From assembly GCF_003334315.1 (NCBI RefSeq), contig NZ_QOWR01000027.1: a stretch of DNA of 57,499 nucleotides. One strand, written 5' to 3'. The stretch comes from Escherichia coli. Its GTDB lineage: Bacteria > Pseudomonadota > Gammaproteobacteria > Enterobacterales > Enterobacteriaceae. A program made the position numbers. Below, piece after piece: positions 44,501-47,500 of this stretch. Position 1 is the first letter of the stretch. The number at the start of each line of letters is the position of its first letter.

Positions 44501-47500
44501 ACCGGGAAACGCAAATATTTTGTACGAACCTGATGGCGGAACTGGTGTCCATCGCAGGTGAATACTGGCTGAGTGATCAAATCCCAGCAGAATTTTATGG
44601 CAAAGCGGCGCGACTGCAGTTAGTCGAAAACGCTTTGACCGTTCAACCGTTAAATTGATCCCTTTTTAACAAGGAATTTCTATGGCACGCATTATTGTTG
44701 TTACTTCGGGCAAAGGGGGTGTTGGTAAGACAACCTCCAGCGCGGCCATCGCCACTGGTTTGGCCCAGAAGGGAAAGAAAACTGTCGTGATAGATTTTGA
44801 TATCGGCCTGCGTAATCTCGACCTGATTATGGGTTGTGAACGCCGGGTCGTTTACGATTTCGTCAACGTCATTCAGGGCGATGCAACGCTAAATCAGGCG
44901 TTAATTAAAGATAAGCGTACTGAAAATCTCTATATTCTTCCGGCATCGCAAACACGCGATAAAGATGCCCTCACCCGTGAAGGGGTCGCCAAAGTTCTTG
45001 ATGATCTGAAAGCGATGGATTTTGAATTTATCGTTTGTGACTCCCCGGCAGGGATTGAAACCGGTGCGTTAATGGCACTCTATTTTGCAGACGAAGCCAT
45101 TATTACCACCAACCCGGAAGTCTCCTCAGTACGCGACTCTGACCGTATTCTAGGCATTCTGGCGTCGAAATCACGCCGCGCAGAAAATGGCGAAGAGCCT
45201 ATTAAAGAGCACCTGCTGTTAACGCGCTATAACCCAGGCCGCGTAAGCAGAGGTGACATGCTGAGCATGGAAGATGTGCTGGAGATCCTGCGCATCAAAC
45301 TCGTCGGCGTGATCCCAGAGGATCAATCAGTATTGCGCGCCTCTAACCAGGGTGAACCGGTCATTCTCGACATTAACGCCGATGCGGGTAAAGCCTACGC
45401 AGATACCGTAGAACGTCTGTTGGGAGAAGAACGTCCTTTCCGCTTCATTGAAGAAGAGAAGAAAGGCTTCCTCAAACGCTTGTTCGGAGGATAAGTTATG
45501 GCATTACTCGATTTCTTTCTCTCGCGGAAGAAAAACACAGCCAACATTGCAAAAGAACGGCTGCAGATTATTGTTGCTGAACGCCGTCGCAGCGATGCAG
45601 AACCGCATTATCTGCCGCAGTTGCGTAAAGATATTCTTGAGGTCATTTGTAAATACGTACAAATTGATCCTGAGATGGTAACCGTACAGCTTGAGCAAAA
45701 AGATGGCGATATTTCTATTCTTGAGCTGAACGTGACCTTACCGGAAGCAGAAGAGCTGAAATAAGCCCGCTGTAAAAGCGCATTTATCTTCAAGGCAGAG
45801 TTATCTCTGCCTTGAGTTTTTCATCCCTCTCATCCACGTTGTGGTAAAGCGGCGAGTATTCTTGCTGATACTCCTCATTGCTATTTCCACCTCCCCCTTT
45901 ACACCTTAAGGCTGTTCCCACGCACAAAACAAAATGTTTATGCCTGGTTGAGTAAATAACCTTATTGTTAGTATGGATATACTGGGAGATGATAACCCCG
46001 CAATTTCATTATTCATTGTTCTCCCATAGGATGAGGTTTCCCGCCGTAACTGGCGGGCTTTTTTTGCCCCAGAATTTTCCCTTTCAACATCCTGTAAACG
46101 AAAACTGCGCCGAAGCGCAGTTTAATCGTTGATGGTCAGAACGACCAGTTCACACCAGCCACCGCGTTCCACGGGGATTCCACACCGGCACCATGGCTAT
46201 ACCCCACCCCGAGATGTCCGCTAAACGTACTGCTGAATGAGGCTTTAATAGCTGCCTGGTATATTCCACGTCTGCCCGACAAATCATTGACGAAATTACC
46301 GTCATTATTCACCTTCACCCGGTTATCATCGACAAATTCTTTGCGCACAGCCGCCTTCAGCCAGGGTTCATTTCCATACCGTTCCCCAGGCGCATGTTGT
46401 AACTCAGCGTTGCACCCAGTTCACGATATATACTGCGGGTATCGACTGATTTCGATTCCATGCCATTGGATAAATGATAGTAGCGTCTAAGTGACCTAAG
46501 CTCTGCTGCAACATCAGCCCGCAGGCACCAGACCAGGGGATTCATCCTGAAGAGACAGCGCAGGTGTATTGTGTTCACCGCTCACCAAAGACATCATGAT
46601 GAAATGATGATATCCCGCATAAGAAAGAGGCATTTTTTACACGCAGTGCGCTGAAGTGTAGTTGGATAAAAAATCACTCTTTTCTGATAATACTGTCGTA
46701 CGCTTATCTTTCGACAATGAGGCCGTCGGCAAAATAAAATGACTAATGTAATCGTTGCTGATGAATATCTTCTGCTCACATAAAAATCACACAATAATAT
46801 TGATAAATCAGATTATCTTACCTTTACAACATTGCGTTAACAGTCAATGACACTTCTTGAATAAATATATTGTCAATCAATGAGTTATTCCTCATTTAAG
46901 ATTATTCTCATTCACGTAAAAAACATAATTCCTATCATCACAGCCACGCTCATTTTGAATTATCTGAATAATAGCGAGCGTTCTTTAGTTAAGCAGATCT
47001 TAATTGAAGACGAAATTATTGTGTGTGCAACTTACTTAATACCGGACATCTAAGTTGAAGAAAAAAATACTTGCCTTCGGGCTTATCTCAGCATTGTTCT
47101 GCTCCACGCCAGCGATGGCGGATATGAACCGCACCACGAAAGGTGCATTGCTAGGCGCAGGCGTTGGTTTACTTACTGGCAATGGTGTTAATGGCGTACT
47201 GAAAGGTGCAGCTGTTGGCGCTGGTGTTGGTGCAGTAACAGAAAAAGGCCGCGACGGTAAAAATGCGCGTAAAGGTGCAAAAGTGGGTGCCGCCGTTGGT
47301 GCTGTCACTGGCGTTCTGACCGGCAATGGCCTCGAAGGGGCGATTAAAGGTGCCGTGATTGGCGGTACGGGTGGTGCAATTCTGGGTAAAATGAAATAAG
47401 GAATGATGATGAAAAAATTTGCTTTACTGGCGGGCCTGTTTGTTTTCGCACCAATGACCTGGGCGCAGGACTACAATATTAAAAACGGTTTGCCGTCAGA

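What the first reader, a model, noticed from the sequence alone, without database searches (positions are those of the whole stretch)
45823..46066. Orphan terminator defines a roughly 240-nt unannotated plus-strand unit between minE and the ycgI remnant
Three intrinsic terminators occur within 330 bp: one for minE (45791-45822), one for the minus-strand ycgI remnant (46095-46120), and a third plus-strand hairpin with T-run at 46040-46066 with no ORF of 60 aa or more upstream of it. It may mark a small RNA or a sub-60-codon protein gene (K-12 has small ymg genes annotated near here that I cannot place from memory).
Basis: seen in the sequence. Interest (0 to 1): 0.4.

Follow-up and report, generated by a model that had tools for sequence, protein, structure and literature searches.

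The report
Unannotated Hfq-bound small RNA after minE
The "orphan" terminator downstream of the E. coli cell-division gene minE most likely ends a short (about 70-80 nt), strongly conserved regulatory RNA that binds the chaperone Hfq. The RNA is absent from genome annotation and appears so far only as an untested candidate in one published supplementary table.

Summary
Three hairpin-plus-T terminators lie in the 371-bp minE-ycgI spacer. The plus-strand one (stem 46040-46057, T7 46059-46065) is the only stem-plus-T7 terminator in the whole 57.5-kb window (0.03 expected by chance).

ymgI and ymgJ lie beyond ycgI and do not explain it. RefSeq annotates nothing here in K-12 or any other listed genome.

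The functional unit is about 67-78 nt (45989/46000-46066), not 240 nt:
- It is single-copy in 5316 of 5426 complete E. coli genomes.
- It is 57/58 identical in E. albertii, while the flanks drop to 21-44% identity.
- It is absent downstream of minE in 79 other enterobacterial species.

Published Hfq RIL-seq data list an RNA "minE.ycgI.IGR" on this strand with a 7-U tract. It has 137 chimeric fragments and 5 partners in stationary phase, and is always second in the chimera. Its sRNA score of 0.276 is above the authors' 0.1 cut-off, but it was never tested or named.

The upstream 45822-45948 tract is variable and C-rich, and a reported Rho-termination region peaks at 45979.

Best reading: an Escherichia-specific, Hfq-dependent base-pairing sRNA. 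The 5' end, promoter and targets remain unresolved. Curated Term-seq lists show no 3' end here.

The parts
45789..45821 (+). minE intrinsic terminator (12-bp stem, loop 4, T5). It bounds the locus and is not part of the new unit.
   Evidence: -19.8 kcal/mol. Term-seq 3' ends at K-12 1224225/1224224, which equal window 45818/45819 (Adams 2021 supplementary file 1).
45822..45948 (+). Variable, indel-rich, C-rich/G-poor spacer. Probable Rho-utilisation tract for transcripts that read through the minE terminator.
   Evidence: GC skew falls to -0.54. Only 44% identity to E. albertii, and indels among E. coli strains. A Rho termination region peaks at K-12 1224064, which equals window 45979, with Rho score 24.9.
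45949..45965 (+). Conserved upstream patch TGAGTAAATAACCTTAT. Possibly a promoter-proximal or regulator site; function unknown.
   Evidence: Conserved in all E. coli sequences examined that retain this part of the spacer and, with one change, in E. albertii, inside otherwise diverged DNA.
45978..45983 (+). Best -10-like hexamer, TATACT. It predicts a transcription start near 45989-45991 and has no recognisable -35.
   Evidence: A at position 2 and T at position 6 are kept in 7 of 9 sequence variants (TATCCT, TATTCT, CATTCT). The exception, TATCCA, is in the AVS0282/DP033 lineage. The consensus scan did not call it because there is no -35. This is inference only.
45989..46039 (+). Predicted sRNA body. 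It is largely unstructured and A/U-rich, contains the CU-rich anti-Shine-Dalgarno-like stretch UUCUCCC, and has UUU immediately before the terminator hairpin. The 5' end is uncertain (45989-46002).
   Evidence: 46000-46056 is identical between E. coli K-12 and E. albertii (57/57), and almost invariant across E. coli. Weak folding of -3.9 kcal/mol, z +1.2.
46040..46066 (+). Intrinsic terminator and Hfq-binding 3' module: stem CCCGCC/GGCGGG (46040-46045 / 46052-46057), then C and U7 (46059-46065).
   Evidence: E. albertii keeps it with T8. The RIL-seq entry minE.ycgI.IGR has U-tract length 7, whereas the minE terminator has only T5.
45906..46016 (-). Rival feature: a 36-aa ORF with GGGAGA 4 nt upstream of its ATG. 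Its first 9 codons and 5' leader overlap the conserved block.
   Evidence: Frameshifted in AVS0282 (and DP033, which carries the same 1-nt deletion), and the C-terminus is replaced in two strains. pN/pS is about 0.5 on very few sites. The exact sequence is not in the protein collection.
46095..46123 (-). Terminator of the convergent autotransporter gene or remnant (ycgI). It bounds the locus.
   Evidence: -13.7 kcal/mol. 90% identical in E. albertii. The ycgI pseudogene lies at 46136-46479.

Best explanation
Window 45989/46000-46066 (K-12 minus strand, about 1224054-1223977) encodes an unannotated small RNA of about 67-78 nt, restricted to E. coli and E. albertii. It consists of a single-stranded, A/U- and CU-rich 5' part followed by a G+C hairpin and a 7-U tail, which is the classical Hfq-binding 3' module.

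The RNA accumulates mainly in stationary phase. It is bound by Hfq through its 3' end and base-pairs with a handful of target transcripts, so it would act as a trans-acting post-transcriptional regulator.

It is made either from its own weak or conditional promoter (-10-like TATACT at 45978-45983) or by processing of transcripts that escape the minE terminator. In exponential growth, transcription entering the region is cut off by Rho in the C-rich spacer.

What is shown and what is inferred:
- Shown from sequence: the terminator, the conservation island and the lack of annotation.
- Taken from published data: Hfq association and position in chimeras.
- Inferred: the 5' end, the promoter, the seed region, and regulation by base pairing.
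For: 1. The terminator is real and far beyond chance.

2. The conservation island ends exactly at the terminator.
- It is single-copy in 5316 of 5426 complete E. coli genomes, at 95% identity or more in all but 3.
- 46000-46057 is 57/58 identical in E. albertii, against 44% in the upstream spacer and 21% downstream.
- The chance of 57-58 consecutive identities is about 1.6e-4 at the locus-wide 86% identity.

3. The block is kept whether the neighbouring autotransporter gene is intact (3.3 or 4.7 kb), IS-truncated, or a 344-nt remnant.

4. Hfq RIL-seq data (Bar et al. 2021, PMC8175672, Supplementary Table 1; names from Melamed et al. 2016) list 'minE.ycgI.IGR'.
- Exponential phase: 12 chimeric fragments, 1 partner, SIC (second-in-chimera score) 0, U-tract 7, score 0.028.
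- Stationary phase: 137 fragments, 5 partners, SIC 0.8, U-tract 7, score 0.276.
- The score sits between RybB (0.292) and Spot 42 (0.228) in that data set. It is close to the northern-verified AllZ (0.295) and FliX (0.272).
- The authors' candidate cut-off is 0.1.
- Its partners look like targets: median 2 interactions, median SIC -0.5.

5. The name order minE then ycgI follows transcription order on the K-12 minus strand. The same holds for fliC.fliA.IGR (FliX, minus strand) and pspG.qor.IGR (PspH, plus strand). That strand is the window plus strand.

6. A U-tract of 7 can only be 46059-46065.

7. Bicyclomycin (BCM, a Rho inhibitor) data from Adams 2021, counted in 800-nt windows around window 45979:
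- Downstream reads rise from 18 untreated to 571 with BCM.
- Upstream reads change only from 230 to 293.
- So a plus-strand RNA accumulates here when Rho is inhibited.

8. No coding signal is conserved on either strand.
Against: - There is no direct detection of a discrete transcript. The candidate was not among the 11 tested by northern blot.
- Curated Term-seq 3' ends in LB OD 0.4, LB OD 2.0 and M63 contain the minE terminator but nothing at K-12 12239xx.
- An N-starvation RIL-seq supplement has no entry for it.
- No sigma-70 promoter passes the consensus scan, and the -35 is absent.
- RIL-seq features of this kind are also shown by some mRNA 3' ends, which the authors flag as possible misclassifications.
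- There is no Rfam family.
- There is no covariation, because the block barely varies.
- I did not see the RIL-seq coordinates or partner names. The placement rests on the name, the strand rule and the U-tract length.
Confidence: 0.62

Rival explanations
1. Fail-safe (tandem) terminator only. The hairpin plus T7 is a back-up stop for minCDE read-through that protects the convergent autotransporter gene from antisense transcription. No separate RNA function exists, and Hfq merely binds the 3' end of a long min transcript.
For: Read-through past the minE terminator evidently occurs, because a strong Rho-termination region lies between the two terminators. The genes are convergent. mRNA 3' ends with long U-tracts can score as sRNA-like in RIL-seq.
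Against: A back-up terminator needs only the hairpin and T-run. It does not explain about 40 invariant nucleotides upstream of the hairpin, kept since the E. coli/E. albertii split while both flanks diverged. It also does not explain 5 distinct target-like partners with the RNA always second in the chimera. The block is also kept where the autotransporter is only a dead remnant.
Confidence: 0.13
2. Minus-strand small protein gene. The 36-aa ORF 46016->45906 (Shine-Dalgarno GGGAGA, ATG) is the functional element, and the conserved block is its leader, ribosome-binding site and N-terminus.
For: A good Shine-Dalgarno sequence lies 4 nt upstream of the ATG. The ORF is open in 7 of the 8 sequences translated. 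pN/pS is about 0.3-0.6, though on only about 20 variable sites.
Against: - A 1-nt deletion shifts the frame in the AVS0282/DP033 lineage, and the last third is replaced in two other strains.
- Conservation is highest in the 5' leader and collapses inside the ORF, the opposite of a coding pattern.
- No promoter-like site lies between the ycgI terminator and the ORF.
- PGAP (NCBI's annotation pipeline) annotates nothing here in any listed genome.
- The exact K-12 peptide is absent from a 15-billion-protein collection.
- The RIL-seq RNA is on the other strand.
Confidence: 0.05
3. Type I toxin-antitoxin-like pair. The plus-strand RNA is a cis-antisense repressor covering the Shine-Dalgarno sequence and start codon of the minus-strand small ORF.
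For: The geometry matches SymR/SymE-type pairs. The predicted RNA (45989-46066) is fully complementary to the ORF's Shine-Dalgarno sequence, ATG and first 9 codons. The ORF is moderately hydrophobic.
Against: The peptide has no clean transmembrane helix, because R, Q, P and G interrupt it. It is not conserved. There is no minus-strand promoter. In RIL-seq the RNA has 5 trans partners.
Confidence: 0.03
4. Non-functional relic. The block would be the decayed 3' end and terminator of a lost gene that arrived with the autotransporter island and is occasionally transcribed.
For: The whole segment 45767-46775 is missing in three other Escherichia lineages, where minE is followed after about 175 bp by ymgJ-side DNA. 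Expression in exponential phase is very low. The block is disrupted by IS4 in at least one strain.
Against: Neutral relics do not stay 57/58 identical across species while adjacent DNA falls to 21-44% identity. Nor would a relic be retained in 98% of E. coli genomes.
Confidence: 0.1

Closest known systems
Hfq-dependent sRNA candidates discovered by RIL-seq from intergenic or 3'-UTR regions (FliX = fliC.fliA.IGR, PspH = pspG.qor.IGR, AllZ, ZbiJ)
   Same: Same data source and same signature: second in chimera, U-tract of 7 or more, several target-like partners, stationary-phase enrichment. It lies just downstream of a protein gene on the same strand and was likewise unannotated when found.
   Different: Those have been verified by northern blot and mostly have mapped ends and targets. 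This one has not. It lies behind a complete intrinsic terminator and a Rho-termination zone rather than inside a simple 3' UTR.
Lineage-restricted intergenic sRNAs of E. coli (EcsR1, EcsR2; Raghavan et al. 2015, PMC4350180)
   Same: Short, terminator-ended RNAs in intergenic regions that are not syntenic with Salmonella. They are present in essentially all E. coli and linked to genome rearrangement or acquired DNA.
   Different: There is no sequence relationship. EcsR1 and EcsR2 lie in uspF-ompN and yagU-ykgJ and were experimentally mapped.
Canonical stand-alone Hfq sRNAs (RybB, Spot 42, MicA)
   Same: Length of 70-110 nt, an unstructured 5' seed, a terminator hairpin preceded by U-rich sequence, and a poly-U tail of 6-8.
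   Different: Those have well-defined sigma-E, CRP or sigma-70 promoters and conservation across Enterobacteriaceae. Here the promoter is unclear and the distribution is limited to E. coli and E. albertii. There is no Rfam model.
cis-antisense antitoxin RNAs of type I toxin-antitoxin systems (SymR, Sib, Rdl)
   Same: A short terminator-ended RNA overlapping the ribosome-binding site and start codon of a small opposite-strand ORF.
   Different: The opposite ORF is not conserved, is not clearly a membrane peptide and has no promoter. The RNA shows trans partners on Hfq.

Membership tests
Hfq-dependent trans-acting base-pairing sRNA | Rho-independent terminator with a long (6-7 or more) 3' U tail, preceded by U-rich sequence (the Hfq-binding module) | tested here: met
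   Stem 46040-46057, U7 at 46059-46065, and UUU at 46037-46039. E. albertii keeps the hairpin with T8.
Hfq-dependent trans-acting base-pairing sRNA | Physical association with Hfq in vivo | tested here: inconclusive
   Published Hfq-FLAG RIL-seq lists minE.ycgI.IGR with 137 and 12 significant chimeric fragments. I could not see read coordinates. Placement rests on the name and strand rule and on U-tract = 7. No hfq-mutant northern blot exists.
Hfq-dependent trans-acting base-pairing sRNA | Acts as the sRNA partner: second in chimeras, with several target-like partners | tested here: met
   SIC is 0.8 with k=5 and 0 with k=1, which gives S=1.0 in both data sets. The partners have median SIC -0.5 and a median of 2 interactions.
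Hfq-dependent trans-acting base-pairing sRNA | Discrete transcript with defined 5' and 3' ends | tested here: not met
   Curated Term-seq lists contain no 3' end at the orphan terminator in three conditions. TSS supplements searched (Cappable-seq, SMRT-Cappable-seq) gave no entry, and the held files may be incomplete. There is no northern blot. This absence comes from thresholded lists, so it is not a demonstrated absence.
Hfq-dependent trans-acting base-pairing sRNA | Regulates targets through base pairing | not testable with these tools
A duplex scan against the 60 translation-initiation regions in the window was no better than shuffled controls.
Hfq-dependent trans-acting base-pairing sRNA | Non-coding | tested here: met
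   The plus-strand ORF through the block runs across the terminator and is truncated in O157. The minus-strand ORF is frameshifted or altered in several strains. Neither product is in the protein collection.
Annotated small protein genes ymgI / ymgJ | Coordinates overlap the unit | tested here: not met
   ymgJ is at K-12 1223264-1223449 (window 46594-46779, minus strand). ymgI is at 1222990-1223163 (window 46880-47053, plus strand). Both lie beyond ycgI.
Any Rfam family | Covariance-model match | tested here: not met
   No hit with E-value of 1 or below in 44000-48000 on either strand.
Type I toxin-antitoxin | Conserved small hydrophobic toxin ORF with its own promoter opposite the antisense RNA | tested here: not met
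   The ORF is not conserved, and there is no promoter-like site on the minus strand between 46016 and 46095.

The most novel reading that the evidence does not exclude
The RNA would be a Rho-gated 'read-through' sRNA of the cell-division operon. Transcripts that escape the minE terminator are normally killed by Rho in the C-rich spacer. When Rho activity drops (stationary phase or stress), they reach the conserved block and are trimmed to a stable Hfq-bound sRNA ending at the T7 terminator. This would couple minCDE transcription and Rho status to a post-transcriptional regulon. The element would have been acquired with an autotransporter island and domesticated, which would explain why it outlives the adhesin gene.
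Probability: 0.12. Interest if true: 0.65.

Novelty: new member of a known kind. Interest (0 to 1): 0.42.

Why it matters
E. coli K-12 is the reference organism for sRNA biology, yet this conserved, terminator-ended, Hfq-associated RNA next to the essential-division min operon has no gene name or annotation.

Confirming it would have three consequences:
- It would add a lineage-specific regulator, restricted to E. coli and E. albertii, to the Hfq network.
- It would give a clean example of an sRNA that persists after the gene it arrived with has decayed.
- It would explain a very strong Rho-dependent signal (score 24.9) in this spacer.

It is an incremental addition rather than a new principle.

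Tried and rejected
Tests that rejected an explanation:
- ymgI or ymgJ as the explanation: rejected by K-12 coordinates.
- EcsR1 or EcsR2 identity: rejected, because they lie at other loci.
- Phage or plasmid origin: no phage hit, and the 13 'plasmid' hits are non-mobilizable records, some of chromosome size.
- Homologues near minE in 79 other Enterobacteriaceae species: none by blastn with word size 7 or by nhmmer --max.

Searches that found nothing:
- Rfam search at E-value 1 or below: no hit.
- Literature search for a named sRNA: no main text holds 'minE.ycgI', and no paper holds any of six 18-20-mers from the block.
- Supplements of the Cappable-seq, SMRT-Cappable-seq, Shinhara 2011 and N-starvation RIL-seq papers: no entry.
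- Melamed 2016 supplement: not held.
- Thomason 2015 dRNA-seq paper: not held.

Analyses that were uninformative or could not be run:
- Local target prediction against 60 start regions in the window: the best energy was reached by 14 of 40 shuffles, so it is uninformative. An earlier attempt timed out.
- Coding test of the minus-strand ORF by pN/pS: underpowered, at about 0.5 on about 20 changes.
- Alternative promoters (sigma-28, sigma-E, sigma-54, CRP/FNR, RcsB) were compared by eye. None fitted convincingly.
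Full report
**Where this is.** The window is E. coli K-12 sequence in reverse orientation. The minE-ycgI spacer is 100% identical to MG1655, and window x corresponds to K-12 1270043 - x. minE is 45498-45764 (+). The ycgI autotransporter pseudogene is 46136-46479 (-). ymgJ is 46594-46779 (-) and ymgI is 46880-47053 (+). RefSeq annotates nothing in that spacer in K-12, although the record does carry ncRNA features such as rdlA and rdlB. Six other fully inspected strains also have nothing there. An 86-nt query over the site fell under 'none' in every listed genome.

**The observation.** All three terminators are real.
- The minE hairpin (45789-45816, then T5) folds at -19.8 kcal/mol.
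- The orphan hairpin (46040-46057, then C and T7 at 46059-46065) folds at -12.3 kcal/mol.
- The minus-strand ycgI hairpin (about 46102-46123) folds at -13.7 kcal/mol. All three are well beyond shuffled controls.
- A stricter scan of my own required a stem of at least 6 bp, at least 5 G-C pairs and a run of at least 7 T. It finds only the orphan site in the entire 57.5-kb window on both strands, against 0.03 expected per simulated window.
- No plus-strand ORF of 60 aa or more precedes it.

**What is conserved.** Alignments of diverse E. coli strains show that 45822-45948 is variable, carries indels and is strongly C-rich/G-poor (GC skew to -0.54). From about 45989 to the end of the T-run the sequence is almost invariant.
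- The 86-nt block is single-copy in 5316 of 5426 complete genomes, and all but three are at least 95% identical.
- I anchored on MinE and fetched 80 species of Enterobacteriaceae. Only E. albertii has the block, by both blastn and nhmmer.
- Against E. albertii, 46000-46057 is 57/58 identical. The upstream spacer is 44% identical, the 28 nt after the T-run are 21% identical, and the zone 45949-45999 is 73% identical.
- At the locus-wide identity of 86%, 58 consecutive matches have a probability of about 1.6e-4.
- E. albertii also keeps all three terminators.
- In three other Escherichia lineages (E. whittamii, E1V33, and a divergent 'E. coli' representative), the whole segment 45767-46775 is missing. 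There minE is followed after about 175 bp by ymgJ-side DNA. The block and the autotransporter gene therefore travel together.
- The block is nevertheless retained whether that gene is intact (3.3 or 4.7 kb), IS-truncated or a 344-nt stump.
- Rare variants exist. A G46053A change weakens the stem in two strains, which carry T8 or T9. One lineage (AVS0282/DP033) has three changes. One strain has an IS4 insertion that removes the 5' half.

**Coding or not.**
- The plus-strand ORF through the block runs across the terminator and is truncated in O157.
- The minus-strand 36-aa ORF (46016->45906) has a good Shine-Dalgarno sequence. However, it is frameshifted in the AVS0282/DP033 lineage, has a different C-terminus in two strains, and is conserved only where it overlaps the block. 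pN/pS is about 0.5 on about 20 changes, which is not informative.
- Neither product is present in a 15-billion-sequence protein collection.
- The only spacer ORF ever called is a 45-aa ORF in the variable part. It is probably what the UTI89 annotation called C1358.
- Rfam has no match.

**Experimental data in the literature.**
- Adams et al. 2021 (PMC7815308) list Term-seq 3' ends at K-12 1224225/1224224, which equal window 45818/45819. These are the minE terminator. They list none at the orphan terminator in three conditions.
- The same paper's bicyclomycin (Rho-inhibitor) experiment reports a Rho-termination region at 1224064, which equals window 45979, with one of the larger scores (24.9, p = 4e-67).
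- In 800-nt windows, untreated reads are 230 upstream and 18 downstream. Bicyclomycin-treated reads are 293 upstream and 571 downstream.
- So the plus strand beyond 45979 is nearly silent in exponential phase and strongly represented when Rho is blocked. The treated downstream count exceeds the upstream min mRNA count.
- This fits Rho loading on the C-rich spacer. It may also reflect a promoter that starts just there. The window size does not allow the two to be separated.
- Bar et al. 2021 (PMC8175672) re-analysed the Hfq RIL-seq data of Melamed et al. 2016. Their Supplementary Table 1 contains 'minE.ycgI.IGR'.
- In exponential phase it has 12 chimeric fragments, 1 interaction, SIC (second-in-chimera score) 0, U-tract 7 and score 0.028.
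- In stationary phase it has 137 fragments, 5 interactions, SIC 0.8, U-tract 7 and score 0.276.
- SIC is S - 1/k, so the RNA was the second partner in all fragments in both data sets. This is the position taken by sRNAs whose 3' end sits in Hfq.
- The score lies between RybB and Spot 42 in that data set and next to the verified AllZ and FliX. It is above the authors' cut-off of 0.1. It was not among the eleven candidates tested by northern blot.
- The name order follows transcription order, as shown by fliC.fliA.IGR (FliX, minus strand) and pspG.qor.IGR (PspH, plus strand). The RNA is therefore on the K-12 minus strand, which is the window plus strand.
- The only run of seven U in the spacer is 46059-46065.
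- I found no paper that names or discusses this RNA.

**Interpretation.** The most economical reading is an unannotated, lineage-restricted, Hfq-dependent sRNA of about 67-78 nt ending at the orphan terminator. Its body is weakly structured. It contains an A/U-rich tract and a CU-rich UUCUCCC stretch that could pair with ribosome-binding sites, and UUU lies directly before the hairpin.

The 5' end is not established. The best -10-like element is TATACT (45978-45983). Its key A2 and T6 survive in 7 of 9 sequence variants, including E. albertii's CATTCT. It has no -35. A conserved patch, TGAGTAAATAACCTTAT (45949-45965), sits where an activator or alternative recognition element could be. The alternative pair TTGTTA-17-GATGAT is less conserved, being GGTGAT in strain A36. 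Production by processing of min read-through transcripts is equally compatible with the data. Enrichment in stationary phase suggests sigma-S or relief of Rho termination, but that is inference.

**Rivals.**
- A pure back-up terminator does not explain the invariant 40 nt upstream of the hairpin or the five target-like partners.
- A minus-strand small protein, or a type I toxin-antitoxin-like pair, fails on ORF conservation, on the lack of a promoter and on strand.
- A neutral relic is contradicted by the conservation contrast.

**Verdict.** The finding is correct as an observation, and its 'small RNA' guess is right in spirit. The unit is about a third of the proposed length, and the ymg genes are a red herring. 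The element is already visible, unnamed and untested, in one supplementary table. It is a probable new member of a well-known class, and it is worth a northern blot and a look at the RIL-seq partners. It is not a new kind of system.

Noticed in passing
window 43900-43963 (K-12 1226099, minus strand): Adams 2021 Term-seq lists a strong 'orphan' 3' end 19 nt upstream of the minC start codon in two conditions. It follows the hairpin ATCATCGCGCGCTGGCGATGAT, which has no T-run. It may be a 5'-UTR-derived fragment or an attenuation point for minCDE.
   Followed up: no
window 45822-45979: A C-rich/G-poor tract (GC skew to -0.54) lies immediately after the minE intrinsic terminator. A published Rho-termination region with score 24.9 peaks at 45979. 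This looks like an intrinsic terminator backed up by a Rho terminator.
   Followed up: partly
L009, L011, L013: 3265-3445: Three non-coli Escherichia lineages, including E. whittamii, lack the autotransporter plus the block. They have a different, long minE terminator hairpin (ATCTGACAG...CTGTCAGAT) followed directly by ymgJ-side DNA. L009 is labelled E. coli but is only about 92% identical in minCDE.
   Followed up: partly
window 45790-45927 (-): A 45-aa ORF in the variable spacer is occasionally deposited as 'hypothetical protein' (for example ECPA14_1811, in a cluster of 7). It is probably the 'conserved gene C1358' mentioned for UTI89 in PMC6206680. It lies in indel-rich DNA and is unlikely to be real.
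   Followed up: partly
window 46136-46479 and loci L002, L003, L006: The convergent autotransporter gene is polymorphic. It is a 344-nt remnant in K-12 and a remnant next to IS1203 in O157:H7. Other strains carry a full-length 3.3-kb YpjA/EhaD-like gene or a 4.7-kb AIDA-repeat gene. Its last about 75 nt also match a paralogous autotransporter elsewhere in most genomes.
   Followed up: partly
L093:159-1550 (strain CE0032f): An IS4 insertion removes the 5' half of the conserved block and leaves only CCCATAGG...T7. This strain is a natural knockout that could be used for phenotype comparison.
   Followed up: no
window about 120-875: Two copies of the ldr/rdl type I toxin-antitoxin (ldrA/rdlA and ldrB/rdlB) lie at the start of the window. 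They are annotated in K-12.
   Followed up: no
window 45765-46140: A GapR-seq preprint reports a positive-supercoiling (GapR ChIP) peak generated by the minCDE transcript at this convergent junction.
   Followed up: no
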